A DNA stretch of 58,744 nucleotides from Candidatus Woesebacteria bacterium RIFCSPLOWO2_01_FULL_39_23 (lineage in GTDB: Bacteria; Patescibacteriota; Microgenomatia; UBA8517), in NCBI GenBank assembly GCA_001793095.1, contig MGHG01000011.1, forward strand, positions 1-58,744, given 5' to 3'. Shown one piece after another: positions 25,978-50,273 of this stretch. How positions within the stretch are numbered: the stretch's first letter is position 1; each line of letters begins with the position of its first letter. Position numbers and translations under genes: made by a program. Under the pieces are notes generated by a model. That model did not search any database. It had not been told where the DNA came from and worked only from the letters and a program-made list of their open reading frames with translations.

Positions 25978-27093
25978 ATGAAACTGAAGATACTTCAGGA
26001 AAACTTATCAGATGCTTTACACATTGCTTCCCGTTTTACAAGTAGTCGTGCACAGTTACCGGTATTAGGCAATATATTATTTCTTGCCAAAAATAATAAA
26101 CTAAGCATTTCAGCAACGAATTTGGAAATGTCGATATTGCTGAACTTAGGATCTCAAGTAGAAAAAGAGGGTGAAATTACAATTCCTGCCAGGACTATTA
26201 CTGATTTGGTAACAAACTTAACGCCCGGAACTCTCGTTTTAGAAGCCGAAAAAGAACAATTGTCAATTCTGGGGGAGGGAACTAAAGCAGTTCTTTCGGG
26301 CATGAACACCTCAGATTTCCCGTCGATTCCTCAGAATGTCGGCCGGGCTTTTGCAACTTTACCTAAATCTGATATTTTGGATGCTCTTTCAAAAGTGCTT
26401 TATGCAGTGTCTGTCGATGAAACAAGACCTGTTTTAACGGGTGTACTGATAATTTTCAGAAATAAAGAAATTATTTTCGTTTCAACTGATGGCTTTAGAC
26501 TATCTCAGAAAAGAGTAAAAGTTGAGGAGGCTTGGGGGAAAGAAGAAAAAGTAATTTTGCCTAAGAATGTATTAATTGAGCTGACCCGGCTTGTGAAGGA
26601 CGAAAAAATAAAACTAGAATTTAAAAAAGAAGACAAACAGGTTCTATTTGGGTTTGACAATCTCCTTCTAATGTCGAGGATTATAGACGGAGAGTTTCCT
26701 GATTTTGAGAGAATTATACCTAAAAGCTCAAGTTATAAAATAAATGTTGACCGGGATGATCTGTTAAGGGCAGTAAAATTGTCCTCAGTGTTTGCAAGGG
26801 ACGCCGGTAACGTTGTCAGACTAAAAGTGACGCAAGAAGGAATAGAACTAAACGCCGAAAGCCAGTTGGGGGGTAGCGGGGAAAATAAGATCGAGGCAAA
26901 AATTGAAGGAGAAGGTAAGAGCGAACACATGGTAATTGCTTTTAATTATCGCTTTTTGGAAGACTTTTTAAATTCACTTGATTCAGAGGATGTTTTAATA
27001 AGTTTGACCGATCCGAACTCACCTGGTGTATTTACTGATCCGAAAGATCCTAATTTTCTTCATCTCATCATGCCGGTAAGAATCCAGAGTTAA
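25978..27093 (+). CDS. dnaN: DNA polymerase III beta clamp
   Basis: LPVLGNI, ATNLEM, RPVLTGV, TDGFRL, G.FPDF.RIIP, IAFN..FL.D, IMPVR. Confidence 0.97.
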   Translation: MKLKILQENLSDALHIASRFTSSRAQLPVLGNILFLAKNNKLSISATNLEMSILLNLGSQVEKEGEITIPARTITDLVTNLTPGTLVLEAEKEQLSILGEGTKAVLSGMNTSDFPSIPQNVGRAFATLPKSDILDALSKVLYAVSVDETRPVLTGVLIIFRNKEIIFVSTDGFRLSQKRVKVEEAWGKEEKVILPKNVLIELTRLVKDEKIKLEFKKEDKQVLFGFDNLLLMSRIIDGEFPDFERIIPKSSSYKINVDRDDLLRAVKLSSVFARDAGNVVRLKVTQEGIELNAESQLGGSGENKIEAKIEGEGKSEHMVIAFNYRFLEDFLNSLDSEDVLISLTDPNSPGVFTDPKDPNFLHLIMPVRIQS

Positions 27094-28118
27094 GGGTTTT
27101 TAATAGCATTTGAGTATAACGTTGCTCGATATTCCTTATTATCAGCAGTGGTCAGTTTTCCTTCAAGGATAAAAACCGGATATAAATTTTCAATGCGCCC
27201 GGACTCTAGAAGATAGGCAATTTTTATTTTATTTATTATAATATTTTTTATTGACGATAAAGGTAGTTGTTCCAACGTATAAAATCCTTCGACGCTTACT
27301 AAGCTGATATCCTGCAGATTCTTTTCTATGTCATTAATTTCTTTTACTGGGTATTTTATAGATTGGTTATAATTTGAAAATTTATCGATATTCAAGGATC
27401 GGATGTCCCCATTTACAAGAAGCGTCACATTATATGGGGAAGTGCTTTGAAAGAAAGCAACAACTTCCAACTCTGCTATTGATGGAACGAAATTGACCTG
27501 GTAATAATCAGCGTCTTCTTTTGTAGTAGAAATTAATGCAGCCTCGTTAGTCTTTGTTTTTTTGAGAAATGTAATTGAAGATACCTTATATGCATCGTCA
27601 TTATAAAAAATAATATTATCCTTCATAAAACTCCTCGCCTTATTAATAATTACATCATCTTCTAGTTTTACTTTATTCACAAAGACTACATCAGGTCGTC
27701 CATAATTTACATTCCCAACCTTTAGGCTGATATATAAATAAACATCATCGCTTTTCCAGTAATATCTTTGACCATATATGGAACTATTAATATTTTTAGG
27801 TAGTTCTTTAAACCCTAAATTACTCGCAATTTTTACGGCCTCATCTGGTGAAATCTGAGATTTTGTTAGGGATATAATTGACGCCTCTTTTGGAAGACTA
27901 AGGTTTTTTTTGTCGATATCAAATTTTAACGGTAAAGCCATAGAATAATTCTGTGGTATTTTGGGTCCGGGTGCTTTCTTTTCTGTTGATATAGTTGGTT
28001 GATTAATAGGATTTTTCGCCGCAATTATTATTAATATAATAACTAATACCAGCAACAGAGGTAATAATATTTTAAGTTGTTTTTTTATTTTTTCGATTCT
28101 GTTTATTTTATTTACCAT
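27090..28118 (-). CDS. Membrane-anchored extracellular hypothetical protein (last gene of the T4SS-like cluster)
   Basis: N-terminal TM helix and Asn/Lys/Ile-rich ectodomain; no motif firmly recognised. Confidence 0.7.
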   Translation of the reverse strand: MVNKINRIEKIKKQLKILLPLLLVLVIILIIIAAKNPINQPTISTEKKAPGPKIPQNYSMALPLKFDIDKKNLSLPKEASIISLTKSQISPDEAVKIASNLGFKELPKNINSSIYGQRYYWKSDDVYLYISLKVGNVNYGRPDVVFVNKVKLEDDVIINKARSFMKDNIIFYNDDAYKVSSITFLKKTKTNEAALISTTKEDADYYQVNFVPSIAELEVVAFFQSTSPYNVTLLVNGDIRSLNIDKFSNYNQSIKYPVKEINDIEKNLQDISLVSVEGFYTLEQLPLSSIKNIIINKIKIAYLLESGRIENLYPVFILEGKLTTADNKEYRATLYSNAIKNP

Positions 28119-28123
28119 TTATA

Positions 28124-30097: not shown

Positions 30098-30099
30098 AG

Positions 30100-33000
30100 T
30101 TATTTGTCGTCTTTCTTGAAAACGTCCACTTCAGGAGTTTTGTCCGTTTGCGGGCCTAAGACCGGTGGAGTATCGTCTTTAACACCCTCTTCCGCTGGGA
30201 TTTCGTTTTCTTGTGCGATCCTCCACGCTGGTATACTTTCTTTGCCGAGTGAGTCTTTCGACTTTGTTTCTTCAACCACGGTTTCTGCCGGCGGTATGTC
30301 TTTCTGTCTTGCCAAAAGTTCCTGGGGGCGCGTTGTTATAAGTTTATGTTCTTCAGGGGAGGCTACGATATAAATTGGTACATGGTGATTGCCGGCGAAA
30401 AATATACCCTCTCCGATGTTTGCCCCGAGAAGCAATTGTTTTTCTCCTTGTGATAGATAAAAGACGTCTCCAACCTTGTCGATTGCGGCGGGGGATTGTT
30501 TTAAAAGTACTCTTAATGCGGAGTTTGTAACGATAGCTTTACCGATATCTATTGACAGGAAGTCTTCAACGTCCTGGGTTATCGTAGTGAGTCCTAGATA
30601 GTACTTTCGGGCGCGTTTGACAATAGACCACATAAACTGAGCCGAATCAGCATACCGCATCATATGCCACGCCTCATCCACCACCAAAAGCCTGCGTTTT
30701 AAATCCCTTTTTACCTTTGTCCAGATAAAGTCAAGGATAATAAACATGGCAATGGGCCGGAGAGCGTCCTGGACCTCTTTAACGGAGAAAACAGTGAAGG
30801 GATTATTAATCTCGACATTTGTTTGCTGGTCAAATATGCCGACGAATGAACCTTTGACGAACTTTTCAATTCTGGCTGCTAAATCCATTGCTTCATCTGT
30901 TTCCATGCCCACCAAAGTTTTATAGAGGTCTTCCATTAGGGGTGGTTCTTTTGTTTGGCTGGCAGAGTCTTGGGTAATGCCTTTTCCACGATAAGTCTCA
31001 ATCAAAGCGTGGTCCAATAAGGCTTCTTGGGTTGCCGAAAGCGTTCCCATAATAACTTTAAAAAGCGAATGCAGGGAAAGGATTTTTAATCCGAGCTGAT
31101 TTTCTCCTTCCTCATATACTTGCGACAGGTCAAAGGGGTTAATTTTTGAAGGTGAGCTGTACGCGAAAGTAATGTATTGACCGCCGACGGCTTCGCTTAG
31201 GTCTTTGTATTCTGCCTCCGGGTCAATAATTATGATTTCGGTACCCAGCATCAAAGAACGTAAAGATTCGAGCTTGACGAAGTAAGAGTTGTGAACGAAT
31301 AGTCCTCCGTGACCGGCAAGAAAGACCTCGTTTTCAACCTGGAGATCATAAACGTATTTGTCTTTTGATTCAAACTTTTTTATTTTGACTACCGGATCCC
31401 AGAATAAATCAGATGTTGCAAGGGTTTTAAGAAAATTTATTTTTTCTTTAATTCTTTGCAACCCCGCCTTTTTCTCTTGGTACTTTTGGCTGATATAATC
31501 TCTTGCGTTTATGACGCTTTCGTAAAGCGGATTTTGATTGGCATTAATTAACGCGGTCCAGAGCGAATAGTTAAAGCAGGAAAGAGACTCTCCTGTTTTT
31601 TGAAATGTTCTATGGATTGCTCCAGTAACATCAGAGGCGGAATAATCATAACCGTGGGTAACAGCCGCCGCTCTCAGCGCGGTGTTAAGTTTTGGAGGAC
31701 AACCGTTTTTAATGGTCCACCAGGATTTACCTAAATTTTTCCACAGGAGAGTATTTAGGGTTTTATCCTCTCCCTCCTTGAGTATTTCTTGAACTGGTGG
31801 TAGGTTGCGCAGGGTGAGTAAACCATCCCTTTCTAAATCCTCGATTTCTTTAATTCTCTCTTCAACATGTTCAATTATGCTTAGTAGATTTTTAGATGAG
31901 GGCTTGAATATTCCCAGTTTTATTTCAGAGAATTTCTTGGGCGCCGGAATCTCGCTACTGGAGTAAAGAACGTCATATATTTCTTTAAAAATCGGCTGTA
32001 GCTCTGGTATAACATCAACGTTTGTGTTGCCTTTTTTAAGTAGTCTTTTAGTTTTTAGGTTTTTCTCTTTTGAAATAAAGCTTATGTTGTTAATGAATTC
32101 CCTGATGTTATCTTGACCTGAAATTCTAAGTCTATAGTATGTATGTTTTGTTTTATTTTTAGTGTTGGTGGCTGCTTTTTTGGCTGTTCTAGTTCGTGTA
32201 ATTATCCCAAACCTTAAAAGCAAATAAGAGAGGTCAGAGGCCAATCCTTTGGATTTTGTCGTCGCAGAAATCTCGTGTTTTTCAACTCCACCGTCTCCCT
32301 CAAAATATGCCTTAAGAAACTCTGCAGCATGTTTCTTAGACGCTGAAAACACTATTTCCGGAATTCTTTTTTCGTTGGCCTTTCCTGACGCTCCGATTAC
32401 TTTGAGGAACTTGGAAAATAAGTGGTTGCTTGTATAAATTCCTATCAATTTTCCACTCTTTTTAACCAATGAATAATTAATTTTCATTGTACTGTAAAAT
32501 TCATGCGCATCTTCCAAAACCTCGTGCGTACAGGAACTAATAAGAGCTCTCTTGGGGATTACCATTCCTTCGGATGCAAAGTAACCGAGCAGCCTGAAAA
32601 ATCCAGAGTTAAGATTTATCTTCCTTGGAATACTTTTAGTAGTTCCATGGTGTGGGTGTTTGATCCTATTATTACTTACATATAGAAAGTCGGCGCCTAC
32701 TTTTTGTAGCGTGTCTTCAACACTAATATATTTTTGCGATCTGGAATCATATAACACACGCTTGGCCAGTGGCAGGTAAGACCCGGTTTTAATAGCATCT
32801 CCTCTGACTACTTTAATTAATCCTCTCTCTAAAGCTACAAAATTGTGATCTTTTGTTGTCGTGATTGCTCTCCCGCTTTTGGTTGTAATTTTGTACAAAG
32901 TTTTTGGTGATTTTTTTCTGGCTGCGACGGTAACCACTGACCATTTTGCTTTGAGAGAATCGTTAAAGCTAAGTACTTTTATGTTTGGCTTAACTACTCC

Positions 33001-34149: not shown

Positions 34150-34151
34150 AT

Positions 34152-34811
34152 TTAAAACCTCGTCTCTCGCTTTCTGCCGGGTACTTGCGGATTATATATA
34201 TGATAAAAAAGCTCGATTAGTTCTGGGGTGGTTAATTGCCGGAGGTCAACTCCCAACCTTCTTGCCTGCCGTATTAAATGGTCACGCTTGGGGTATAGCG
34301 CAACCCGGGCTTTTTTCAAAACATAACTTTTTGGGAAAGGTATAAAACTTGCTTTTTTAGAAAAAGATATGGCGCTTTTCGCGATCCCGAGTTCGTACTT
34401 TGAAAAAGGGACAACAAGATAGAAATTTTTCGACAGGACGTTTTTCTTTTTAACTGACTCGGTAATAAATTTTTGATAATCATTTAAAAGTACCATGAGC
34501 TTGGGGTTCTTTATTTTCTTCTTCGCCTCTTCCAGGAATCTTAAATAATTAGTGATGTCTTTTCTTTGTGACCTGACAACGATTTGGACGGGAAAATTGA
34601 AGGAATTTAAAAGTCCTGCGTAGGAAGCAATGACAGCGTCCTGTTCCAGCTCATTTAGGAGTCCGAAATTAAGAGACGTTGATTCGATGATCAATGCCGC
34701 ACCGCCGTCCTTGAAAAGAACAATATCGTGAATAATTTCGGCAATAGGTATCTTGTCTTGAGTGCTTGAGTAAAGCGGTTTGTCTGGTGTTGATAAAAAT
34801 GGTATTTTCAT
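34152..34811 (-). CDS. T4SS-associated protein resembling the VirB4/TraE N-terminal region
   Basis: DKIPIAEI..DIVLF.DG, NFGLL...EQDAVI..YA.LLNS..FP.QI..RS. Lies between prgI and virB4. Confidence 0.7.
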   Translation of the reverse strand: MKIPFLSTPDKPLYSSTQDKIPIAEIIHDIVLFKDGGAALIIESTSLNFGLLNELEQDAVIASYAGLLNSFNFPVQIVVRSQRKDITNYLRFLEEAKKKIKNPKLMVLLNDYQKFITESVKKKNVLSKNFYLVVPFSKYELGIAKSAISFSKKASFIPFPKSYVLKKARVALYPKRDHLIRQARRLGVDLRQLTTPELIELFYHIYNPQVPGRKRETRF

Positions 34812-34852
34812 GAATTTAACTTAGAACTAATAACTAATGACTAATGACAAAC

Positions 34853-35899: not shown

Positions 35900-35907
35900 T
35901 GTATTTA

Positions 35908-35941
35908 GAGCATAAGAGTAAAAGAGTGGAAAAGTATAAGG
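35908..35941. repeat. 8-nt tandem repeat array at the 3' flank of the four-helix gene
   Basis: gcataaga gtaaaaga gtggaaaa gtataagg; inverted relative to 36345-36382. Confidence 0.6.
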
Positions 35942-35967
35942 AAATCCACTCCTACACAAATTACCTT

Positions 35968-36342: not shown

Positions 36343-36344
36343 AA

Positions 36345-36382
36345 TCTTATACTCTTACGCACTTAGGCTCTTACACTCTAAG
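36345..36382. repeat. 8-nt tandem repeat array at the 5' flank of the four-helix gene
   Basis: tcttatac tcttacgc acttaggc tcttacac tctaag. Confidence 0.65.
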
Positions 36383-41040: not shown

Positions 41041-41096
41041 AAATTGACTTATTTTTAATTCTACCACACTACATTATTAGATACGCAAGGATGTAT

Positions 41097-44000
41097 TTAT
41101 AGACATCTAGCTAAGTCGCGTACGCTTGTTTCATAGCATGCATATTGATTCGCCTCGCACCACGGCGTTGCGCCAAACCTGGGATCCTGTTCGCACACTT
41201 GTTGGCTATCGCAATAGCCTAAATATTGCCTAGCGGCTGTAATAATATCGGAGTCCGACCAACTACAACCTGAACCAGTTCTAGTTCCGGTATTTAAACG
41301 TACCCCCTCGCACGTTGGATAACCTGGTGGATTGCAGATTGCAGTATAACCGTCCCAGCCGGGACTTCCGTTAAGTAACTTTCTGGCTGCCGCAAACGTT
41401 GAATCGAGTAAGTTGCACCTATCCGGAATTCTGCCGTCGTTTATGCCTGTTCCGCCATTGTCGAAAACTGCAGCATCCGGTCCCGTTTTCCAACCGGTGG
41501 GTAAAAACTGCCATGGCCCAGCAGCGCCTGACTGGCTTACATTATAAGAATAACAATTGGGAACTTGGCAGTTTGGCCCGCTGGACTCTAAAACCAATTG
41601 GTCAGTCCAATCGAATCTGTCAAACCCGCCTTCGTTATAGAATACTCCCACTAGCAGATTTGCGGGTACATCGTAATATGATGCAGCTGATTCAAATATT
41701 TGCTTCATGAGCGGCGGCATCCAGGAGTCGTATTTTGAGCACATTTGGCAGTCTTGGACGGGAGGTAAATTAGGTAATACAGCAGTGCATGTACCCACAC
41801 CTGCCGATGATGTATCGGATAATATTTGATAACCATAACCCTTTGGCCGTAATATGCCCTGAATTCCAGTTAAGAAATATTCTTTTATGCCGCCAATATG
41901 CGGGAAGTACAGTTGCGCGCCGGATCCCGACCTTAGGTTTCCGGGGTTACCTGCATAAACAGTTCCGTCACTACTTGTGTAGTTAACGCTTGTAGAACCA
42001 GGTATATCCCAAATTTCTGAAACTGCACTTCCGGATGCGACCTTGGGAAAAATTCTTCTGAACACGCTCGAAGAGCCCGCCACAAGCCTTGACCAGATAT
42101 TGTCTGCAAGGGGCGTTTGGGTTTCAAGACCCATGTTAATATAGGAAAAAGTAGAGCACGACTGTGTTGAGGGGGAGGCTTCAACTGGCCTTTGACAAGA
42201 AGTTGAATTTACACACTTAAAATAAGCACTAGGATTACAACTTGTATTTGGAATTGGAGTACAATCTGGCGCCGAGTTAAAATTGGTTGGAACACATATT
42301 CCATATCCATCGCATCTGGCATGACTAATAAGTGTAACTTGTTCTCCGGCTACACATATATAACCCAAATCGCAATCATACCTGCCGTAATTTACTTCTG
42401 TGTAGAGATCAGGAAACGGATCTGGTATACAAGTTCCTCCTGCCAACTTCTGACATAAGTTGCCATAGGGAGCAGGGTTAGGCTGTTGATCCCCGTTTCC
42501 CCACACATAAAAATTACACGCCACCTGAGCCGTGTAACTTACACTTCCCGACAGACCTCCTGCGAAAATATCGTCACCTGGATTGGTTCTTGCTTGAACA
42601 ATATCGCAGTAGGGAGACTCAGGTATAAAGGTTGCGTCAGTCATGTTGTCTTTATCGGCTCCTTCCGGAATATAGGTATTTTGCAGTGCGTCAGCCAAAT
42701 CTCTTCCTTCTTCCATATGGGGGATAAACATATCTGCCGGTGGCACATTGCTTACGTCTACGCTAATCAGGCGAAATTCGGGGGAAGCAAAAGAATAGGA
42801 AGAACTTTTAACATTTATTTCTCCAAGTCGGTCTTCGGTTGAAGAAAAGAGAACATTGGAGAAAAAATTAGACCAAAAATTAGGATTAAGAGGATCATCA
42901 AAGCACCAAAATACTGTACGGTTGCCAAAGATTGCGAACGGTATTGTAAGCTTAAAACAGAAAAGTCCCCGCCAAGCGTAATAATCCGATAGGAAGTTAG
43001 AGTAGTCTTGGCCGATATAGTCTTCTTCCAGGGGTGGCTTATGATCGTTCCAGCCAGAAAGTCGAAGTTGCCTTTCGCCAATTTCAACCGGGCCAATAAA
43101 GGGGAGGTTGATAGTGAAGAGGGGGGTTCTACCGACAATTTCATCATGTCTTTCTTCGGAATTTTGGGTTCTCGACCTATTTGCGCTGTCGACTTCTCGA
43201 ATCCTTTCGCCTGATTGTATTGTAAAAGGCAGTAATTTTCTTATCGGGCCGGAGTAGTTAATAACTTTGTCTCTATCAAGAATATCAACAGGGTCTCCTG
43301 ATACGCAGCATGCAGCAGGCGTCAAACACATGGGACTTTGATCAACAGTAAGATCGTCGTTGGGGTGTGTGGGGGGAATGAAAAAAGGATTTCTTTCCAT
43401 ACAAACTCCATTCTCATTGAGCTCAAGGCATTTACCGGCCGACCCTGTATTTTGACCAATACAGTCGTTATCTGCGTCCATTGGGGGATATTCGGCCTTG
43501 TTAATTACACCATTTAAATACCAGCTTACATATTCGTTAATCTTGTCATTGTCGGTTAAGGTTTCATCACCGTTGTACTGGTTGATTACACTAGGATTAC
43601 CTGAACCAGTATTTCCGATTGAGGGTTCTGTATAACCCATGACGGGGAATTTTGCTCCAGAAATATCTATAGAGAAACTTTTATCACCACTTATAGTAAA
43701 TGAACAACTTTCTATACCCTCACCAATATTTAAGCAACCTCCGCACTCTGCATTTGTAGCGCATTGGTCAGCATCTGGTATACATGGTTCTGTATTTGTG
43801 ACACATTGGCCGCTTGTGTCGCAGTAGTGACAAGCGTTTGAAATGGGATCGAATGGTGGGTTGGGTTCTATATCAGACCCTCCAAAAGTATAAGAAGGTG
43901 TGGGGTTCGGGGCTACTCCGAAATTTTTGACAATCGAAACACTATCGCTTAAAACCAAATCATTTCCACAAAATAGCGCTAAATCTTCTTTGTTTGGATT

Positions 44001-44990
44001 ACACGGACTGGCTTGGTATGGCCGAAGAGAGTGAAATTCTTCATCTGTAAAAGAAGAATCTTCGGGAGCAACTGCGTTACAGGGAAAGGGATATTCTGCA
44101 GATCCGGTTCGGAATCTAGGTCTGGCTTCTCCCGATACCTGTGCGGGAGTGGGTTGGGGAGGTTGAATGCCTGCGCCAACACAATCACCCGCACACACCC
44201 CTAAATGATTGGCGACTTTCCGTTCTGCTCCATCCGAGGGATTATTTTTTATGGTATGTCCATTCTCAGAAGTAACCAAAGTGCTGGAGCCGCCTCCGTC
44301 CATATTGATTGCAGACTCCGCTTGGCAATTTAGCATCATATCAGCCAATTCCTTGAGAGTCACTCCCGGACTATCAACGACCATCAATAAAAGAGTATTA
44401 TTAGAAGCTTTTGCTATCGCGGTTCTGGGATGCAGGTTTGTGCAATAGACTAATGGGTCTTCGCAGTTATTTATTTTTGCGCTCATCACTCCGTCTTTTA
44501 CGAGCGTGTGTCCTCCCGATATGGCGCTCCATTGATTGCCGGGGTTAGTAAAACCTACCGGTTCGTTAAAAAAAGTAACGCCGTTATCTTGCGAGATATA
44601 AATTGAGGGCTCTCCTGATGCATCCGAATAGACATCTCCGTTATAAGTAGCTAGGCCAAGTGGGTCATATATTCCCGGAATAGAGTAATCGCCATTAACG
44701 GCTACACTAGCTCCGTTGTCTAATAAAAAGGTACTTGTATATACTCCAAGACCATCTCTCGGAGTTACGGTTAAATCAATATTCGGGTCATTAAGATCAG
44801 CTTTTACTATAAACCACTTTAGTGTTCTGGGAGAGATTGTGGATTCTTCTTTGTAAGTGATACCAGGGAAAAGTTGACTGAAACCATTAAAGCAGTTAAA
44901 AGTAGGTCCTTGGGCAAAGATAACGTTTATCGAAGCTAAAAATAGCAGTACGAAGATAATTAAACTGGAAAATAACCGCATCTTGGGCAT
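41097..44990 (-). CDS. Secreted multidomain protein: phosphodiester glycosidase (NAGPA/DUF2233-like) + Cys-rich regions + C-terminal lytic transglycosylase-like domain
   Basis: Signal peptide (IFA|QG); AVNGDY, HPRTAI, L.ELA..M, AINMDGGGSS; C-terminal VPANLLVGVFYNEGG and SQSGAAGPWQF. Confidence 0.8.
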   Translation of the reverse strand: MPKMRLFSSLIIFVLLFLASINVIFAQGPTFNCFNGFSQLFPGITYKEESTISPRTLKWFIVKADLNDPNIDLTVTPRDGLGVYTSTFLLDNGASVAVNGDYSIPGIYDPLGLATYNGDVYSDASGEPSIYISQDNGVTFFNEPVGFTNPGNQWSAISGGHTLVKDGVMSAKINNCEDPLVYCTNLHPRTAIAKASNNTLLLMVVDSPGVTLKELADMMLNCQAESAINMDGGGSSTLVTSENGHTIKNNPSDGAERKVANHLGVCAGDCVGAGIQPPQPTPAQVSGEARPRFRTGSAEYPFPCNAVAPEDSSFTDEEFHSLRPYQASPCNPNKEDLALFCGNDLVLSDSVSIVKNFGVAPNPTPSYTFGGSDIEPNPPFDPISNACHYCDTSGQCVTNTEPCIPDADQCATNAECGGCLNIGEGIESCSFTISGDKSFSIDISGAKFPVMGYTEPSIGNTGSGNPSVINQYNGDETLTDNDKINEYVSWYLNGVINKAEYPPMDADNDCIGQNTGSAGKCLELNENGVCMERNPFFIPPTHPNDDLTVDQSPMCLTPAACCVSGDPVDILDRDKVINYSGPIRKLLPFTIQSGERIREVDSANRSRTQNSEERHDEIVGRTPLFTINLPFIGPVEIGERQLRLSGWNDHKPPLEEDYIGQDYSNFLSDYYAWRGLFCFKLTIPFAIFGNRTVFWCFDDPLNPNFWSNFFSNVLFSSTEDRLGEINVKSSSYSFASPEFRLISVDVSNVPPADMFIPHMEEGRDLADALQNTYIPEGADKDNMTDATFIPESPYCDIVQARTNPGDDIFAGGLSGSVSYTAQVACNFYVWGNGDQQPNPAPYGNLCQKLAGGTCIPDPFPDLYTEVNYGRYDCDLGYICVAGEQVTLISHARCDGYGICVPTNFNSAPDCTPIPNTSCNPSAYFKCVNSTSCQRPVEASPSTQSCSTFSYINMGLETQTPLADNIWSRLVAGSSSVFRRIFPKVASGSAVSEIWDIPGSTSVNYTSSDGTVYAGNPGNLRSGSGAQLYFPHIGGIKEYFLTGIQGILRPKGYGYQILSDTSSAGVGTCTAVLPNLPPVQDCQMCSKYDSWMPPLMKQIFESAASYYDVPANLLVGVFYNEGGFDRFDWTDQLVLESSGPNCQVPNCYSYNVSQSGAAGPWQFLPTGWKTGPDAAVFDNGGTGINDGRIPDRCNLLDSTFAAARKLLNGSPGWDGYTAICNPPGYPTCEGVRLNTGTRTGSGCSWSDSDIITAARQYLGYCDSQQVCEQDPRFGATPWCEANQYACYETSVRDLARCL

Positions 44991-45047
44991 CCTGCATAGT
45001 ATAACATGTGCCAGACACACCTTGAATTTATTTGTATAAAGAAGTCA

Positions 45048-45368
45048 TTACTGGTTTACTGTGAAGGTTGTTACGTTGGCGCCCGTGAATGTTTGAATTA
45101 GAACTAGTATTAGGAAGGCTAGAGCTATTACTAATAATCCACCTACTGCGTAGGTAACTATCTTTCTTGCTGCTTGAGCTGCCTCTGGATTGCCTCCAGA
45201 TGTCATTAACTTAAATCCTCCAACAATAAGCATTGCAAAAAGGGCAATTCCGGCAAAACCCAGAATTGTGGTAACAATGTTATTAAATATCCACTCAAAA
45301 CCCTTAATGGTGGCTACACCGTTAATTACTTCAGAGCCTTCTATCGGATCTCTTTGTGCAAGATACAT
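45048..45368 (-). CDS. VirB2/TrbC-like pilin 1
   Basis: Two TM helices around GGFKLMTSGGNPEA...ARK..TYAVGG. Confidence 0.82.
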   Translation of the reverse strand: MYLAQRDPIEGSEVINGVATIKGFEWIFNNIVTTILGFAGIALFAMLIVGGFKLMTSGGNPEAAQAARKIVTYAVGGLLVIALAFLILVLIQTFTGANVTTFTVNQ

Positions 45369-45395
45369 ATCTATAGTTTAGTATATCTGCTAAAC

Positions 45396-45426
45396 AAAAA
45401 AAAGCGGCTCGGAAGAGCCGCTTTTT
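45396..45426 (-). terminator. Bidirectional intrinsic terminator after pilin 2
   Basis: AAAAAAAAGCGGCTC-GGAA-GAGCCGCTTTTT. Confidence 0.8.
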
Positions 45427-45446
45427 CCTTAAAAGGACAGATCCCC

Positions 45447-45764
45447 TTATGATCCAGGAATATTAAATCCTCTTAAGTTGACTCCAAAGAAGCTCTCGAT
45501 GAGAGTTAGTATTGCCCAAGCGGCAAATACTATCACGAGACCTACCAAACCGGCTGTAATTTGATTTCTTGCAGCTTCTGTTTTCCCTTTATCCCCACCC
45601 GAGGTGATCCATTTGATACCTCCCAAGACGAGTATAAAGAAGAAGGCGATTGCCGCGACGATTAAAACAAATGAAATTGCCAATGTAACCAAATCGCCAA
45701 AGTTAATATTCGTTAAATTTGTAAACTCGGCTGGTGGTTGTAGGTTAATATTTTGTGCCAGCAT
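45447..45764 (-). CDS. VirB2/TrbC-like pilin 2
   Basis: GGIKWITSGGDKGKTE.AR.QITAGL.GL.IVFAAWAI. SD-like GGGGGTG places the start at ATG 45764 (MLAQ). Confidence 0.85.
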   Translation of the reverse strand: MLAQNINLQPPAEFTNLTNINFGDLVTLAISFVLIVAAIAFFFILVLGGIKWITSGGDKGKTEAARNQITAGLVGLVIVFAAWAILTLIESFFGVNLRGFNIPGS

Positions 45765-45828
45765 CTTTTTTTCCACCCCCTTCCGTCTAATATAAATAAA
45801 TATATTATCCGTTTTTCAATAAAATAAT

Positions 45829-46185
45829 TTATAGTGCAGGACCAGGGCCTCCACCCCCGGGTAATCCAACGTTAAAGCTTCTAAGATTTACACCGAAGAA
45901 GTTTTCGAGTATGGATATGATCGCCCAAGCGGCAAAAACGATGACCAAACCGATTAGACCGGCTGTAATCTGGCTTCTTGCAGACTCCGTTTTCCCTTTA
46001 TCCCCACCCGAGGTGATCCATTTGATACCTCCCAAGACGAGCATGAAAAAGAATGCAATCGCTGCAATAATGAGAACAAAGTTTATCGCAAGGGTAACAA
46101 GAGTAGTAAAATCTATATTCGCAAGGTTGCCAAATTCGTCCGGAGGAATTAAATTAATTTGATTTTGTGCTAAAAGTTGATTCAT
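45829..46185 (-). CDS. VirB2/TrbC-like pilin 3 (close paralog of pilin 2)
   Basis: Same motif as pilin 2; GAGGTG SD upstream. Confidence 0.85.
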   Translation of the reverse strand: MNQLLAQNQINLIPPDEFGNLANIDFTTLVTLAINFVLIIAAIAFFFMLVLGGIKWITSGGDKGKTESARSQITAGLIGLVIVFAAWAIISILENFFGVNLRSFNVGLPGGGGPGPAL

Positions 46186-46270
46186 GTTTATTAAATATTC
46201 ACCTCACTTACATCGTATTATTCTACAAAATCTGCTTTTATGTCAAGTGGCTTGGTTTTTTACAAGTCAC

Positions 46271-46651
46271 CTAAGGCGGCGGGGCAATTGTATTTATATA
46301 GTTAGATGGATTTAGAATGTCTTCAAATCCGACCAGTATGCCGAGTATCTCGGCGAGGAAAAGGGCTGCGACAACTATCGTAAGTCCGACAACTCCGGAG
46401 ACCATTCTCGATCTTGCTTCGGCGAGTTTGCCTTTATCTCCACCCGAACCCATCCAGGCAATACCTCCGGAAATCAGTAAGAACATAAACCAGATGCCGG
46501 CGACTAATGTCAGAATACCTACAATTGCAGTAAGAATAGAGCTAAAAAGTGCGGGTGAGTTACTTGAGGCTTGTCCCTCTAGCCCATACGTGCCAACTCC
46601 ATTTAACCGCGGACCAATAGTTACTTGTACTTGTGCGATTATTTTTTCCAT
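46271..46651 (-). CDS. VirB2/TrbC-like pilin 4
   Basis: GGIAWMGSGGDKGKL.EAR.RM..GVVGL.IV. Confidence 0.82.
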   Translation of the reverse strand: MEKIIAQVQVTIGPRLNGVGTYGLEGQASSNSPALFSSILTAIVGILTLVAGIWFMFLLISGGIAWMGSGGDKGKLAEARSRMVSGVVGLTIVVAALFLAEILGILVGFEDILNPSNYINTIAPPP

Positions 46652-46652
46652 A

Positions 46653-46997
46653 TTAAGGACCGAAAACCTTTAATTGTAGGAGAGCATTGAAATCATTGAA
46701 AAGAAGTTTACCGAATATTCCGGCTAGGACGAAAGAGCCGACAGCAACAAGAAGTCCGATCATAGTCTGCCAGATTTTTGCCCAAGCAGCGGCTATTTTT
46801 TCCGGATTGCCGCCGGCAGACATGAAAGCGTAACCTGCGAAAATAATATTAAAAAGAGCATAAACACCGGCAATCACAATAATTGTTTTTATAATATTGC
46901 TCATAAAATTTGACAGGGCACTTACGTCTCCCCCATAAGTTGAAACTCCCGGTGGAGGATTGACATTACCGAATACTTGCGCTATATAATTTTGCAT
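46653..46997 (-). CDS. VirB2/TrbC-like pilin 5
   Basis: AGYAFMSAGGNPEKI..AW.KI...MIGL. Confidence 0.82.
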   Translation of the reverse strand: MQNYIAQVFGNVNPPPGVSTYGGDVSALSNFMSNIIKTIIVIAGVYALFNIIFAGYAFMSAGGNPEKIAAAWAKIWQTMIGLLVAVGSFVLAGIFGKLLFNDFNALLQLKVFGP

Positions 46998-47003
46998 ATT
47001 AAG

Positions 47004-47324
47004 TTAAAAACCCGGATTTATTATATTAGTATAACCCGTAATTAATCCTACTATTTTTATCAGCCAATAGGAAGTGAAGATTATAAAAAAACCCAATATG
47101 GCTGCAGTTGCAGCTTTTCTACCCTTGGCAATGTCGTCTTTGTTGCCGCTCCCGGCGCCTACCATCATTGATATGCCCCCGAAGATAAGAAGAATTAGAA
47201 GCATCACACCCGCAATGGCCACTGCGTTTGATAGGATTACCGATACAAGATCTGCAAAGCCTTTGCCTTGTCCCCAGACAGAATTAAAAGTTGGTCCTAT
47301 ATCTACTTGTGCAATTATTTTCAT
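47004..47324 (-). CDS. VirB2/TrbC-like pilin 6
   Basis: GGISMM.GAGSGN......GRK..T.AILGF.IIF.SYW. Confidence 0.82.
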   Translation of the reverse strand: MKIIAQVDIGPTFNSVWGQGKGFADLVSVILSNAVAIAGVMLLILLIFGGISMMVGAGSGNKDDIAKGRKAATAAILGFFIIFTSYWLIKIVGLITGYTNIINPGF

Positions 47325-47330
47325 ATTTAG

Positions 47331-47906
47331 TTAAAAAATTGAACTTATCTGTCCGATTCCTAAAATAATTGCAGCTATTTTAACCACCCAGTATGATACA
47401 AATATTATAATAAATCCTACTAAAGCCATGGTAATTACCTGTTGTGCGCTTTTGGCGTTGTCTGGGTTGCCGGCTGATAATAAAAATTTAAATCCTCCGT
47501 AAATTAAGTAAACAAGAAGGACTAAACCAATTATAGGGAAAATGTATGTTAAAAGGAGACTAATGATATCACCAATTGTTGTTGATTGGGTGAAGAATAA
47601 TTGTCTTGGTTGAGGAATGGGTTGGATTATGCGATATAAACTACTCCAGTTAATGCCGCTACAAACGCAGGGTATGTTTTGATTTTCAGGAGCTGTACAA
47701 GCTGTAGGATTATTATCAAACATATCACAGCTTCCAACTTCACAAGGATCTACACAGTTGCCCGTAGCAATACAGTCTTCATCACCCGCAAGAAGGCATC
47801 TATAGTATCCTTCGGCTTGGGCTAGGGTGGGCTTTGAAGAAGATAAGAATAATGCTAATAAAAGTAGTCCCAGAAGCATAACCTTTATTTTAACAAGTTT
47901 AAGCAT
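47331..47906 (-). CDS. Pilin-domain protein 7 with signal peptide and 8-Cys N-terminal module
   Basis: PTLA|QA; 8 Cys; C-terminal GGFKFLLSAGNPD.AK.A...IT.A.VGF. Confidence 0.82.
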   Translation of the reverse strand: MLKLVKIKVMLLGLLLLALFLSSSKPTLAQAEGYYRCLLAGDEDCIATGNCVDPCEVGSCDMFDNNPTACTAPENQNIPCVCSGINWSSLYRIIQPIPQPRQLFFTQSTTIGDIISLLLTYIFPIIGLVLLVYLIYGGFKFLLSAGNPDNAKSAQQVITMALVGFIIIFVSYWVVKIAAIILGIGQISSIF

Positions 47907-47933
47907 AGATATAATTAATATTAATGATTCTTA

Positions 47934-49094
47934 TTATAAACCTGGAATCCTTAAAATTCTTATTCCAAATAAATCTAAAATAAATACTGAAAAAATAATC
48001 AGTAAAAGTCCGGAAACGGCAGCCGTTAACAGTTCTTTACCGGCCTGAAGTTTTTGTTTATCTCCTCCGGACGTCATAATCAGAAAACCGGCAAAGATTA
48101 TTAATATCATGGCAATACCACCACCAATCCCCAGAGCCCACTTCAGGACGAATGCAAGGAAATCGTTCTGGCTGCTTACGGGAATGCATCCTATTGCTGT
48201 ATATATTCTTCCCAGCTGTCCTGGGGCAGGAGTAGCTGTAGTGGGGTTACCATATGAATCACAATAATAAGCAAGCATGGGTCGGGGAGTAATTGGTAAT
48301 GTTGGGGTGGTAGCGCTACAATCACAATCATATGTTCCGATTATGCAAGTAGGTTCTCCTATACCGCCAGAGCAATTAATTGGATTGCAACCCGGCACAC
48401 AATTATTATCGCTTACATAACAACTACTCCCGCCGCCAATTGAGCAGGTAAATGTGTTTGAAGGCATGGGGGTGGGGGTGACACAATAACCTCGTGGATT
48501 AAAAGCATCGGCGTCACAAACTAAACCAGCAGTACAGTTAAGCGGTGCGTCTGCCCTACTCGGGGGACAAGTGTCTGGTGGAATACCGTGTTGTATACAC
48601 GAATTACTAACATCACAATAAATGTAATTGTTATTACAACAATAAAAGGGTGTCGGTGTAGGTATGGGTGGAATTGGTGTAAGGGTTGGTGTTATTAATG
48701 CGGTTTGGGTCAAACAACAGGGAGTTGCTTCATCGAACGTGTTTCTACATCCCGCATCGGGTGCCCCTTCGTAGCTATAGGGAGGTATAGGACACGCTCG
48801 AGTATTCAAGGGGTCGTCATGATTGTAGTATATACAATAGCCGCTTTCATTTACTGTACCTTCGTAGCAAAGTTCGCTATTGGGATCAAAAGTGCCAGAG
48901 GGTACACAGCAGTATTGTAATGGACATTCTGTGTCTGGGTCGTTTATGTCCTCGTAGCAGTTACTTGCACAATATCCCGGCCGACCGTCTACGTCGTAGG
49001 AACATGCATTTTGAGCTTTAGCGTACTTTGAAGTCATAAGTGTTAGGAATACAGCTAGAGGTAATATAATTAGATAAAACTTTTTCAACATCAA
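47934..49094 (-). CDS. Pilin-domain protein 8 with large Cys-rich passenger
   Basis: AKA|QN; 30 Cys by hand count in modules separated by Pro/Thr linkers; C-terminal TAIGCIP...GF.IMTSGGD...GKELLTAA. Confidence 0.82.
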   Translation of the reverse strand: MMLKKFYLIILPLAVFLTLMTSKYAKAQNACSYDVDGRPGYCASNCYEDINDPDTECPLQYCCVPSGTFDPNSELCYEGTVNESGYCIYYNHDDPLNTRACPIPPYSYEGAPDAGCRNTFDEATPCCLTQTALITPTLTPIPPIPTPTPFYCCNNNYIYCDVSNSCIQHGIPPDTCPPSRADAPLNCTAGLVCDADAFNPRGYCVTPTPMPSNTFTCSIGGGSSCYVSDNNCVPGCNPINCSGGIGEPTCIIGTYDCDCSATTPTLPITPRPMLAYYCDSYGNPTTATPAPGQLGRIYTAIGCIPVSSQNDFLAFVLKWALGIGGGIAMILIIFAGFLIMTSGGDKQKLQAGKELLTAAVSGLLLIIFSVFILDLFGIRILRIPGL

Positions 49095-49130
49095 CTTGAG
49101 TTTAGCACCGTTATATTGTGTGTTACAAGC

Positions 49131-50273
49131 TCAAAGGCCCGGAATTCTTAAGATTCTCAGGCCTATCACATCGAGAAGGTATACTGAAAATATAATCATC
49201 AAAAGTCCCATGATCGCTGCAGTTAATAATTCTTTCCCAGTTTTTGCTCTTGCAGGGTTCCCGGCCGATGTCATTATCATGAACCCCGAGAGAATTATTA
49301 CAATAAATGCGATTCCCCCACCCAATCCTATTGCCCAAGGAAGAATGAAAGAAAGAAACTCTGTTTGATTTGCAACAGGTATACATCCTACCGCTGTGTA
49401 TATTCCTTCCTGGCCATATCTGGTACAGTTAACACTTAACATTGGTCTGGGTGTTAATGGAAATGCTTGTCGGTCTATACAACAAGACATACCCAATGGA
49501 CAGCCGATTGTGTCATGGGGGGGATTTATACCATCCCAATCTCTGTCTGGAGGACAATTGAGGTAATAGCAATTCCCAGGTAAGTCCGTAAAATAACCAA
49601 TACAATTATTGGACGGTTGACATGTCCATACGGTACTATCAAAACAACCTCCACCTCCCGGTCCGCCGAAACCACTGCAGCTATCGGCGCATAAGGGAGA
49701 AAGCTTATCAACTGCCGTGCATTTTTTTTGAGCTAAAGCCGAGCAATAATTACCGGATGGGGATGGATCAGGGTCGACGTAGCAACAGGATGGTGCAACC
49801 GGAGGAATATTAAGGTCGATAACAAATTGGCTATAGCCATATAAAGTCTGTTCGTCATGAGATCTAAGCTCTATTGTGTAAAAACCTGCACCAGGAAACC
49901 AGGGGGTATCTGCAGTCCATCCATTATCAATATAGTTTGGAGGAACTATAACTTGAAGGTTATTAACGGGTATATCGACTGTTTCCGGCCAAAGAGTAAT
50001 ATATTTATGTATTATATAGGGTGTACCACTCGGATTGTATGTAATTTTCAGGATTGGGTCTGGAGGACAGCTCTGATTTGTACAAAGTAAGCTATCGTCG
50101 CAATTTTCGATATATATTGTACGCGCTTCGGATAAATTAGCAGTACTCGGTGAGGTTGTAAGAACACAGGCAAACTGAGCATAAATACTTGAAGGAAAGA
50201 GTGTTTTTATTATTATTAAACTAAAGGTGAAGGTAAAAAATGTGCAGAATATATTTCTAAGTAAGCTCTTCAT
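49131..50273 (-). CDS. Pilin-domain protein 9 with beta-rich and Cys-rich passenger
   Basis: IYA|QF; 20 Cys in the mature part by hand count; C-terminal pilin domain paralogous to pilin 8 (both end RILRIPGL). Confidence 0.82.
   Translation of the reverse strand: MKSLLRNIFCTFFTFTFSLIIIKTLFPSSIYAQFACVLTTSPSTANLSEARTIYIENCDDSLLCTNQSCPPDPILKITYNPSGTPYIIHKYITLWPETVDIPVNNLQVIVPPNYIDNGWTADTPWFPGAGFYTIELRSHDEQTLYGYSQFVIDLNIPPVAPSCCYVDPDPSPSGNYCSALAQKKCTAVDKLSPLCADSCSGFGGPGGGGCFDSTVWTCQPSNNCIGYFTDLPGNCYYLNCPPDRDWDGINPPHDTIGCPLGMSCCIDRQAFPLTPRPMLSVNCTRYGQEGIYTAVGCIPVANQTEFLSFILPWAIGLGGGIAFIVIILSGFMIMTSAGNPARAKTGKELLTAAIMGLLMIIFSVYLLDVIGLRILRIPGL

What the first reader, a model, noticed from the sequence alone, without database searches (positions are those of the whole stretch)
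27090..50273. 23-kb T4SS-like envelope cluster abutting oriC, without a relaxase, coupling protein or integrase
Seen: co-oriented genes for nine pilin-domain proteins, a wall-degrading fusion, VirB6-like, PrgI, a VirB4 N-like protein, VirB4, an M23 peptidase and an anchored ectoprotein, ending convergently on dnaN. No VirD4, relaxase, integrase or VirB7/9/10 is recognisable in the window. Known: Patescibacteria carry a conserved T4SS-like locus thought to act in host interaction. Inferred: a domesticated, non-conjugative host-attachment or secretion machine whose origin-proximal position gives high dosage.
Basis: partly seen in the sequence, partly recalled or inferred. Interest (0 to 1): 0.62.

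Follow-up and report, generated by a model that had tools for sequence, protein, structure and literature searches.

The report
Woesebacterial chromosomal type IV secretion locus
This is the conserved, chromosomal, non-mobile type IV secretion and pilus locus that ultra-small Patescibacteria (here a Woesebacterium) keep next to their replication origin; the kind, its missing relaxase and its origin position were published in 2025, and the one new item is a hypervariable opposite-strand gene that always sits inside the locus.

Summary
Window 27090-50273 carries nine PF18895 pilin-domain genes, a NAGPA-domain Cys-rich exoprotein, a polytopic VirB6-like protein, a PrgI-like protein, a TrsD-like protein, VirB4, an M23 peptidase and a membrane-anchored protein. 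It ends convergently on dnaN, about 1.2 kb from a DnaA-box cluster.

Corrections: a 957-aa gene on the opposite strand and a four-helix gene lie inside the cluster. VirB4 is split by a 614-aa LAGLIDADG intein. A well-conserved VirD4-like coupling protein exists elsewhere in the genome (contig C5).

The ICE rival is refuted:
- None of five relaxase families is found genome-wide.
- There is no integrase, tRNA or att-like repeat at the locus.
- VirB4 is present in 39 of 41 relatives at 58-77% identity, against 36-56% for DnaN.
- It lies 2-7.5 kb from dnaN in 35 of 36 relatives that have both on one contig, and gene order is kept across the class.

All of this, including the dosage idea, was published in 2025 (PMC12102498). 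The dosage claim remains untested, and the cluster is transcribed head-on to replication.

New here: every relative has a 440-1076-aa cytoplasmic protein in the same opposite-strand slot, hypervariable in sequence. This genome's version folds confidently and has no structural match in the PDB.

The parts
24380..25744 (+). dnaA (context marker of the origin)
   Evidence: 454-aa ORF; 39-68% identical hits in relatives next to dnaN
25769..25877 (.). Candidate oriC: cluster of four DnaA boxes (at most 1 mismatch) in the dnaA-dnaN spacer
   Evidence: boxes at 25769, 25790, 25802, 25869; sequence; cumulative GC-skew minimum at about 24-26 kb
25978..27093 (+). dnaN, convergent on the last cluster gene with a 4-nt overlap
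27090..28118 (-). 342-aa protein with one N-terminal membrane anchor; family unknown. A VirB8/TcpC-like role is only a guess from size and topology.
   Evidence: one TM at residues 15-33; no Pfam, NCBIfam, PHROG or PDB match; weak orthologues in 3 of 10 relatives and a 331-aa positional counterpart (24% identical) in L106
28124..30097 (-). 657-aa membrane protein with a C-terminal M23 peptidase domain (wall endopeptidase)
   Evidence: PF01551, 42.6 bits; TM-like segments at residues 264-282 (marginal) and 299-317; variable length in relatives
30100..34149 (-). VirB4 ATPase, 1349 aa; 735 aa once the intein is removed
   Evidence: P-loop_TraG 92.6 bits; orthologues at 58-77% identity in 39 of 41 relatives
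31288..33129 (-). 614-aa LAGLIDADG intein inserted between the Walker A Lys and Ser of VirB4 (GAGK|T...HN|S)
   Evidence: Intein_splicing 70.5 bits and LAGLIDADG_3 71.2 bits; boundaries; intein-free relatives read FATSGAGKSYFVKLES, identical to the predicted spliced product; the VirB4 match is also split at this position (with a 2.4-2.7-kb gap) in G003, G004, G019 and G039, consistent with an insert there
34152..34811 (-). TrsD-like protein (resembles the VirB4 N-terminal domain), 219 aa
   Evidence: NF041427 TrsD E 2.2e-6; NF045975 VirB4_plasma residues 103-233 E 2e-7; 49-65% identical in all 10 relatives
34853..35959 (-). PrgI (VirB3-like) membrane protein fused to a CarboxypepD_reg beta-sandwich domain, 368 aa
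   Evidence: 19 of 19 orthologues match PF12666; 18 of 19 match PF13620
35968..36342 (-). 23S_rRNA_IVP four-helix-bundle gene; an occasional passenger, not a conserved member of the locus
   Evidence: PF05635, 105 bits; found at this place only in G018 and G165 among the relatives examined; further copies on C5
36462..39335 (+). 'Slot' protein of 957 aa on the opposite strand: no TM helix or signal peptide, a charged low-complexity N-terminal half and a conserved 500-aa C-terminal domain of unknown fold
   Evidence: no Pfam, NCBIfam or PHROG match; 70 representative clusters in the family; AF2 pLDDT 89.5, pTM 0.85; no PDB fold match; positional counterparts in 27 of 27 relatives; family members in 7 further genomes all sit in the same slot
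39349..41067 (-). VirB6-like polytopic membrane protein (563-572 aa)
   Evidence: signal peptide plus about 6-7 TM helices; more than 1248 homologues, all unnamed, no Pfam match; AF2 pLDDT 75.9; top three Foldseek PDB hits are TrwI/VirB6 of R388, prob 0.91-0.96, TMt 0.40-0.47, E 0.18-0.28
41097..45020 (-). 1307-aa secreted Cys-rich protein (54 Cys) with an N-terminal NAGPA phosphodiester-glycosidase domain
   Evidence: PF09992, 113 bits; signal-like TM at 16-34 and 54 Cys; C-terminal SLT domain not confirmed
45048..47324 (-). Six small VirB2-like pilin genes (106-126 aa)
   Evidence: PF18895; two-TM hairpin; 24-44% pairwise identity except pilins 7 and 8 at 81%
47331..50273 (-). Three larger proteins (191, 386 and 380 aa) with a signal peptide, Cys-rich ectodomains and a C-terminal pilin domain
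   Evidence: PF18895 at the C-terminus; 8, 30 and 21 Cys
50340..52106 (+). Divergently transcribed SpoIID-domain coiled-coil protein, a conserved neighbour of the pilin end of the locus
   Evidence: PF08486, 51.7 bits; syntenic in 8 of 10 relatives

Best explanation
This is the core chromosomal type IV secretion and pilus machine of a Candidatus Woesebacteria (Microgenomatia, Patescibacteria) genome. It is the monoderm-type, relaxase-less T4SS that is conserved across the phylum and essential for epibiotic growth in the one genetically tractable member.

Proposed working; the steps below are inferred from homology, not shown here:
- VirB4 becomes active only after its intein splices out. Together with the TrsD-like protein and the PrgI/VirB3-like anchor it forms the cytoplasmic-membrane energy centre.
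- The VirB6-like polytopic protein forms the membrane channel.
- The NAGPA-domain exoprotein and the M23 peptidase open the cell wall, either its own or the host's.
- The nine divergent VirB2-like pilins, three of them carrying Cys-rich ectodomains, are extracted from the membrane to build a surface filament or adhesive stalk that contacts the host bacterium.
- A VirD4-like coupling ATPase encoded tens of kilobases away may feed substrates to the channel.

The locus is inherited vertically, not transferred, and has kept its place beside dnaN at the origin.
For: - Domain assignments.
- Lineage: record titles of the closest loci name Ca. Woesebacteria/Microgenomates.
- Conservation: VirB4 is found in 39 of 41 relatives spanning family, order and class at 58-77% identity, while DnaN in the same genomes is only 36-56% identical.
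- Position: virB4 lies 2-7.5 kb from dnaN in 35 of the 36 relatives that have both on one contig, and convergent with it in 34.
- Gene order: dnaA-dnaN-(variable)-VirB4-TrsD-PrgI-slot-VirB6-NAGPA-pilins-SpoIID is kept in 9 of 10 relatives examined in full, and in 7 more distant class members.
- Co-divergence: VirB4 identity correlates with DnaN identity (Spearman 0.77, p 6e-7).
- No relaxase of PF03432, PF02486, PF01076, PF03389 or PF08751 anywhere in a 99.45%-complete genome.
- No integrase on this contig, no tRNA near the cluster (nearest features are at the window ends) and no flanking direct repeats.
- A T4CP is present in trans and conserved.
- Published context: PMC12102498, PMC10633639 and PMC12857230 describe the same system, its essentiality in Southlakia epibionticum, the pilin arrays and the dnaA/dnaN proximity.
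Against: - No function has been measured in any Woesebacterium. Essentiality and the host-interaction role are extrapolated from a Saccharibacterium whose locus differs: its large proteins are on the same strand and its pilins are divergent.
- The VirB6 assignment rests on topology, position and a top-ranked but statistically weak fold match (E 0.18-0.28).
- No VirB8-like component was identified.
- The SLT (VirB1-like) domain was not confirmed.
- MOBC, MOBM, MOBH and MOBB relaxase profiles (CONJscan/MOBscan) could not be run, and the conserved T4CP keeps DNA transfer possible.
- The intein starts with Thr, which is unusual, so splicing competence is assumed rather than shown.
Confidence: 0.85

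Rival explanations
1. It is an ordinary integrative conjugative element (ICE), or a decaying remnant of one, that happens to have landed next to the origin.
For: VirB4, TrsD, PrgI and a T4CP are the hallmark genes of monoderm conjugation. GC content in the cluster is slightly higher (0.40-0.44) than in most of its flanks (0.355-0.40), although the divergent SpoIID gene just beyond the pilin end is also 0.436.
Against: - No relaxase in five families anywhere in the genome.
- No integrase on the contig, no tRNA target and no att-like repeats.
- The locus is present in 39 of 41 relatives at the same chromosomal position and in the same gene order across the class.
- VirB4 is more conserved than DnaN and co-diverges with it.
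Confidence: 0.03
2. It is a working DNA-transfer or DNA-uptake machine (chromosomal conjugation, or a ComB- or Ced-like importer). It would use the trans-encoded T4CP and an unrecognised DNA-processing protein, possibly the opposite-strand slot protein.
For: - The T4CP orthologue is as conserved as VirB4 (61-78% identity, 39 of 41 relatives), and T4CPs are normally tied to substrate recruitment.
- The authors of PMC12102498 leave open 'very different relaxases'.
- The slot protein is cytoplasmic and of unknown fold.
- Patescibacteria cannot make nucleotides and must import them (stated in PMC10633639).
Against: - The residues conserved in the slot family include no histidines, so an HUH-type relaxase is unlikely.
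- In Southlakia the T4CP homologue is not essential while the T4SS is, and loss of competence (comEC) does not affect viability (PMC12102498; PMC12857230).
- No oriT-like element was sought or found here.
Confidence: 0.1
3. It is purely an adhesion or pilus organelle: the T4SS core only assembles the pilin filament and secretes nothing.
For: - Nine pilin genes make up about a quarter of the locus, three with Cys-rich ectodomains suited to binding.
- No recognised effector gene is present.
- The T4CP is unlinked to the locus.
Against: - Patescibacteria already have type IV pili for adhesion (PMC12857230).
- A conserved T4CP and a locus-embedded hypervariable cytoplasmic protein are better explained if something is translocated.
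Confidence: 0.2

Closest known systems
Patescibacteria-clade T4SS as described by Quinonero-Coronel et al. 2025 (PMC12102498), Microgenomatia arrangement
   Same: - VirB4 with TrsD and PrgI next to it.
- A VirB2-like pilin array; the paper reports arrays of 2-11 genes, frequent in Microgenomatia.
[quoted passage not shown]
- No outer-membrane core: VirB10 was sought and not found; VirB7 and VirB9 were not searched.
- dnaA/dnaN and rnpA/rpmH nearby.
- The dosage hypothesis.
   Different: - The paper found VirB6 homologues scarce and PrgI mostly unlinked to virB4 in Microgenomatia. Here a VirB6-like protein (by fold and topology) and a PrgI-like protein sit in the locus in every relative examined.
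- The paper does not mention the VirB4 intein ('intein' occurs 0 times).
- The sections of the paper I read do not mention the opposite-strand slot gene or the head-on orientation.
T4SS locus SEML1_0006-0019 of Southlakia epibionticum ML1 (Wang et al. 2023, PMC10633639)
   Same: - Origin-proximal (low locus-tag numbers).
- VirB4, a TrsD-like 0009 and PrgI 0010 in the same order.
- Large VirB6-like membrane proteins and an array of PF18895 pilins.
- No relaxase recognised.
- Wall hydrolases next to virB4.
   Different: - In Southlakia the large proteins between PrgI and the pilins lie on the same strand as virB4, and the pilins are divergent.
- An NTF2-like (VirB8-like) protein is present there; none is recognised here.
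- Essentiality was measured there and not here.
Monoderm conjugative T4SS of class MPF_FATA (pGO1 Trs, pCF10 Prg/Pcf, pIP501 Tra)
   Same: VirB4, TrsD, PrgI/VirB3-like, a VirB6-like channel, cell-wall hydrolases and a VirD4-type T4CP. VirB10 was sought and not found; VirB7 and VirB9 were not searched.
   Different: - Those systems lie on plasmids or ICEs with a relaxase and oriT, lack VirB2 pilins and use surface adhesins.
- This one is chromosomal and fixed in position, has nine pilins and no relaxase, and its T4CP is unlinked.
Tandem VirB2 paralogue arrays of Bartonella and Anaplasma virulence T4SSs
   Same: Several divergent pilin paralogues in tandem within an effector-type, non-conjugative T4SS.
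   Different: Those are diderm MPF_T systems of intracellular pathogens of animals. Here the system is monoderm-type, the host is presumably another prokaryote, and three pilins carry large Cys-rich ectodomains.

Membership tests
Patescibacteria-clade T4SS (PMC12102498) | VirB4 ATPase present and conserved within the lineage | tested here: met
   P-loop_TraG 92.6 bits; 39 of 41 relatives at 58-77% identity. Placement inside the published 'Patescibacteria clade' of the VirB4 tree was not computed.
Patescibacteria-clade T4SS (PMC12102498) | TrsD-like and PrgI/VirB3-like genes next to virB4 | tested here: met
   NF041427 E 2.2e-6; PF12666 matched in 19 of 19 orthologues; adjacency in all relatives
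Patescibacteria-clade T4SS (PMC12102498) | Array of VirB2-like (PF18895) pilins near virB4 | tested here: met
   nine ORFs
Patescibacteria-clade T4SS (PMC12102498) | No relaxase; T4CP, if present, encoded away from virB4 | tested here: met
   five MOB Pfam families absent genome-wide; T4CP on another contig. MOBC, MOBM, MOBH and MOBB were not tested.
Patescibacteria-clade T4SS (PMC12102498) | Chromosomal position near dnaA/dnaN (Microgenomatia, Paceibacteria) | tested here: met
Integrative conjugative element | Relaxase and oriT | tested here: not met
   no hit for PF03432, PF02486, PF01076, PF03389 or PF08751; oriT was not searched
Integrative conjugative element | Integrase or recombinase at one end, with att direct repeats, often at a tRNA | tested here: not met
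   the PF00589 hits are on C9, C15 and C5 only; no tRNA near the cluster (the nearest are at 673-744 and 56971-57364); no bracketing repeats. Serine recombinases and DDE transposases were not searched.
Integrative conjugative element | Patchy distribution and variable insertion site among close relatives | tested here: not met
   39 of 41 relatives carry it at the same site next to dnaN
VirB6/TrbL (PF04610) | Sequence match to the family profile | tested here: not met
   no Pfam hit in 42 family members and no PDB sequence hit
VirB6/TrbL (PF04610) | Polytopic helical fold like TrwI/VirB6 | tested here: inconclusive
   the top three of 350,542 PDB chains are TrwI/VirB6 (prob 0.91-0.96, TMt 0.40-0.47), but E is 0.18-0.28 and model pLDDT is 75.9
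VirD4-type coupling protein (the C5 gene) | TrwB_AAD_bind, T4SS-DNA_transf and TraG-D_C domains above curated cut-offs, with an N-terminal membrane anchor | tested here: met
   41.8, 31.3 and 26.8 bits against cut-offs of 20.5, 20.1 and 22; hydrophobic N-terminus visible
Class 1 intein with LAGLIDADG homing endonuclease | Splicing blocks plus an endonuclease domain, a C-terminal HN followed by Ser/Thr/Cys, and precise interruption of a conserved host motif | tested here: met
   PF14890 70.5 bits and PF14528 71.2 bits; HN|S junction and exact restoration of GAGKSYFVKLES. The first residue is Thr rather than Cys or Ser, which is atypical; splicing was not tested.
VirB1-type lytic transglycosylase (SLT) | SLT domain in the wall-degrading fusion protein | tested here: not met
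   no Pfam SLT hit at E <= 1 in the C-terminal 297 aa and no PDB sequence hit. Only NAGPA is confirmed.

The most novel reading that the evidence does not exclude
The opposite-strand 'slot' gene (36462-39335 here) may encode the translocated substrate or host-specificity factor of the Microgenomatia T4SS.

What is shown:
- It is always present between the PrgI-like and VirB6-like genes.
- It has no TM helix in this genome's protein and no hydrophobic leader in the N-termini listed for its counterparts, so it is presumably cytoplasmic.
- Its sequence is hypervariable and partly discordant with phylogeny.
- Its C-terminal domain has a confident predicted fold with no PDB relative.

Proposal: it is an effector or adaptor that diversifies with the bacterial host and is recruited by the trans-encoded T4CP. 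If so, it would be the first candidate cargo for a Patescibacterial T4SS.
Probability: 0.2. Interest if true: 0.75.

Novelty: new member of a known kind. Interest (0 to 1): 0.35.

Why it matters
The T4SS is one of the few machines shown to be essential for the epibiotic life of Patescibacteria, yet what it moves is unknown. This locus adds nothing categorically new about the machine itself, because the kind, the missing relaxase and the origin position are published. It does give three things:
- A clean, quantified case that the system is a vertically inherited core trait in Woesebacteria, more conserved than DnaN.
- Evidence that a coupling protein co-evolves with it in trans.
- A concrete candidate, the hypervariable slot protein, for the missing cargo or specificity factor. 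This can be tested by structure, interaction and localisation experiments.

Tried and rejected
- hhalign of TrsD-like orthologues against the VirB4 N-domain gave only E 0.14. The TrsD link rests instead on the NCBIfam hits.
- Linking all slot proteins into one family failed. BLAST, jackhmmer and hhalign join only 8 of 28 (G000, G009, G015, G017, G018, G040, G034, G028). The rest stay in small unlinked groups. A word-index search with the G010 slot protein found only itself.
- A positively charged C-terminal tail, as in VirB/D4 substrates, gave a weak result. The mean net charge of the last 20 residues is +1.8 in slot proteins against +0.64 (sd 2.3) in the genome background, but the wider family shows no excess. 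I do not count this as evidence.
- No PDB sequence or fold match for the slot domain.
- The idea that the 342-aa anchored protein is VirB8/TcpC-like found no support in Pfam or a PDB profile search.
- The SLT domain in the NAGPA protein was not confirmed.
- PHROGs found nothing for the unknown proteins.
- The ICE reading was rejected on synteny, conservation and the missing mobility genes.


Full report
**1. What is there**

ORF listing and profile searches give the following layout.

| Coordinates | Strand | Product |
|---|---|---|
| 24380-25744 | + | dnaA |
| 25978-27093 | + | dnaN |
| 49131-50273 to 45048-45368 | - | nine PF18895 pilin-domain genes |
| 41097-45020 | - | 1307-aa secreted protein, 54 Cys, NAGPA domain (113 bits) |
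| 39349-41067 | - | 572-aa polytopic membrane protein |
| 36462-39335 | + | 957-aa protein with no family match |
| 35968-36342 | - | 124-aa 23S_rRNA_IVP four-helix protein |
| 34853-35959 | - | PrgI-like protein fused to a CarboxypepD_reg domain |
| 34152-34811 | - | 219-aa TrsD-like protein |
| 30100-34149 | - | VirB4 |
| 28124-30097 | - | membrane protein with an M23 peptidase domain |
| 27090-28118 | - | 342-aa protein with one membrane anchor |

- The last cluster gene overlaps the end of dnaN by four bases.
- All nine pilins have the two-helix hairpin of VirB2.
- Their cores are 24-44% identical to one another. The exceptions are pilins 1 and 2 (65%) and pilins 7 and 8 (81%, a recent duplication also seen as a 287-nt direct repeat).
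- The minus-strand genes form two tightly packed blocks separated by the + strand gene.

**2. Checks on the weaker assignments**

- The 219-aa protein matches NCBIfam TrsD (E 2.2e-6) and the N-terminal regions of two VirB4 models.
- PrgI is marginal in this protein alone, but 19 of 19 orthologues match PF12666.
- The 572-aa protein belongs to a family of more than 1248 unnamed proteins with no Pfam match.
  - Its AlphaFold model has pLDDT 75.9.
  - Its three best PDB matches are the TrwI/VirB6 chains of the R388 T4SS: probability 0.91-0.96, TM 0.40-0.47 on the target, but E only 0.18-0.28.
  - With its topology and fixed position, 'VirB6-like' is reasonable, but membership is not proven.
- An SLT domain in the NAGPA protein was not confirmed.
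- The 342-aa anchored protein has no recognisable relative.

**3. VirB4 intein**

- VirB4 is interrupted by a 614-aa LAGLIDADG intein (31288-33129) between the Walker A Lys and Ser.
- Intein-free relatives read FATSGAGKSYFVKLES, exactly the predicted spliced product.
- In four other genera (G003, G004, G019, G039) the VirB4 match is split at the same query position (338-347) by a 2.4-2.7-kb gap; most relatives are contiguous there. I did not scan those four inserts for intein domains.
- The intein starts with Thr, which is unusual.

**4. Origin**

- Four DnaA boxes with at most one mismatch lie within 110 bp of the dnaA-dnaN spacer, and a perfect box lies upstream of dnaA.
- The cumulative GC skew reaches its minimum at 24-26 kb.
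- The cluster therefore starts about 1.2 kb from the probable oriC.
- It lies on the minus strand to the right of the origin, so it is transcribed towards the origin, head-on to the replication fork.

**5. Mobility genes**

- The genome (1.126 Mb, 18 contigs, 99.45% complete) has no match to Relaxase, Rep_trans, Mob_Pre, MobA_MobL or TrwC, and none to VirB10/TrbI.
- Tyrosine recombinases occur on C9, C15 and C5 only.
- There is no tRNA near the cluster (the only tRNA and the tmRNA lie at the window ends) and no bracketing direct repeats.
- The genome does encode a VirD4-type coupling protein, contrary to what the title of the finding suggests.
  - It is C5:18337-20658, 773 aa, with TrwB_AAD_bind, T4SS-DNA_transf and TraG-D_C all above their curated cut-offs.
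  - Its orthologue is found in 39 of 41 relatives at 61-78% identity.
  - It lies 55-115 kb from virB4 in the long-contig genomes I compared (G005, G008, G010, G017, G018, G023, G026, G033).
  - Most relatives also have a second paralogue (34-37% identical) that this genome lacks.

**6. Relatives**

- The spliced VirB4 finds orthologues in 39 of 41 relatives from 37 genera (family, order and class) at 58-77% identity. DnaN in the same genomes is 36-56% identical.
- virB4 lies 2-7.5 kb from dnaN in 35 of the 36 relatives that carry both on one contig, and the two genes converge in 34. Exceptions: G035 (17 kb away, same strand) and G040 (7.2 kb, same strand); in G024 the two genes are on different contigs.
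- tblastn of every window protein on 40-kb regions of ten relatives shows the same order from dnaA through the pilins to the SpoIID gene in nine of them. Seven more distant class members show it too.
- VirB4 identity correlates with DnaN identity (Spearman 0.77, p 6e-7) and with T4CP identity (0.70).
- Record titles of the closest loci name Candidatus Woesebacteria/Microgenomates.
- This is the reverse of the patchy pattern that would mark an ICE.

**7. What is already known**

Quinonero-Coronel et al. 2025 (PMC12102498) describe exactly this system across Patescibacteria:
- a VirB4 clade derived from MPF_FATA;
- TrsD, PrgI and VirB6;
- VirB2 arrays of 2-11 genes, especially in Microgenomatia;
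- T4CPs far from virB4, and almost no relaxases;
- proximity to dnaA/dnaN with the gene-dosage suggestion.

Wang et al. 2023 (PMC10633639) showed by Tn-seq that the Southlakia locus is essential for epibiotic growth. A 2025 review repeats this (PMC12857230). The dosage part remains an untested idea, and the head-on orientation is a point against a simple high-expression argument.

**8. What seems new: the slot gene**

- In all 27 relatives where the PrgI-to-VirB6 interval lies on one contig, a 440-1076-aa ORF sits on the opposite strand, abutting the 3' end of the VirB6-like gene.
- The window's version (957 aa) has no transmembrane helix and no signal peptide. It has a charged low-complexity N-terminal half and a conserved C-terminal domain.
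- That domain defines a family of about 70 representative clusters.
- It folds with high confidence (pLDDT 89.5, pTM 0.85) and has no structural neighbour in the PDB (best E 1.2, TM at most 0.13).
- A profile of the family found members in only 8 of 151 class genomes, including this one. All seven others lie in the same slot.
- The best hit (E 1e-122) is in another family of the class, whereas several same-family genomes have unrelated-looking proteins in the slot.
- Only 8 of 28 slot proteins can be linked by sequence.
- So the position is fixed while the sequence is hypervariable, and possibly exchanged.
- I read this as a T4SS-associated factor under diversifying pressure, a candidate cargo or specificity determinant, but with low confidence. 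A test for positively charged C-terminal tails was weak.

**9. Verdict**

- The ICE rival is refuted.
- The locus is a new member of a known kind.
- The slot gene and, to a lesser degree, the VirB4 intein are the items worth following.

Noticed in passing
window 36462-39335 (+); counterparts in L006, L008, L011, L013, L015, L016, L018, L020, L025, L107-L133: A large cytoplasmic protein is always encoded on the opposite strand between the PrgI-like and VirB6-like genes. It is hypervariable in sequence. This genome's version has a confident AF2 fold with no PDB match, and its family distribution is discordant with phylogeny.
   Followed up: yes
window 31288-33129 (-): A 614-aa LAGLIDADG intein splits the VirB4 Walker A motif (GAGK|T...HN|S). 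It starts with Thr. The VirB4 match is split at the same position by a 2.4-2.7-kb gap in four other genera (G003, G004, G019, G039), consistent with an insert there, and is contiguous in most relatives.
   Followed up: partly
genome contig C5:18337-20658 (-), locus L005:6338-8659: A VirD4-like coupling protein is encoded away from the T4SS locus, beside a 23S_rRNA_IVP four-helix gene and about 1.4 kb from a tyrosine recombinase (Phage_integrase plus SAM-like N-terminal domains). It is conserved at 61-78% identity in 39 of 41 relatives. Most relatives have a second paralogue (34-37%) that this genome lacks.
   Followed up: partly
window 27090-50273 relative to oriC at about 25.8 kb: The whole minus-strand cluster is transcribed towards the origin, head-on to replication. 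This orientation (convergent on dnaN) is kept in 34 of the 36 relatives with both genes on one contig.
   Followed up: partly
window 35968-36342 (-); C5:17920-18288 and C5:5049-5423: 23S_rRNA_IVP four-helix-bundle genes are scattered in the genome. One sits inside the T4SS locus and one sits next to the T4CP gene. At the T4SS site it is present only in some relatives (G018, G165).
   Followed up: no
window 45447-45776 and 45829-46185 (-): Pilins 7 and 8 are 81% identical in their cores (287-nt direct repeat at 72% nt identity). This recent duplication exceeds the 54% maximum reported for published arrays.
   Followed up: no
L008 (G008:C1:847872-849642): In one complete relative genome VirB4 is split into two ORFs, an N-terminal one of about 394-418 aa and a C-terminal one of 231 aa, that overlap by about 10 nt. 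This could be a frameshift, a pseudogene or a sequencing error.
   Followed up: no
window 28124-30097 (-): The M23 protein has a charged N-terminal part of about 260 aa (presumed cytoplasmic) ahead of its TM-like segments (264-282 marginal, 299-317), and a weak DotA/TraY hit (E 0.0055) over residues 153-317. Its orthologues range from 453 to 2012 aa.
   Followed up: no
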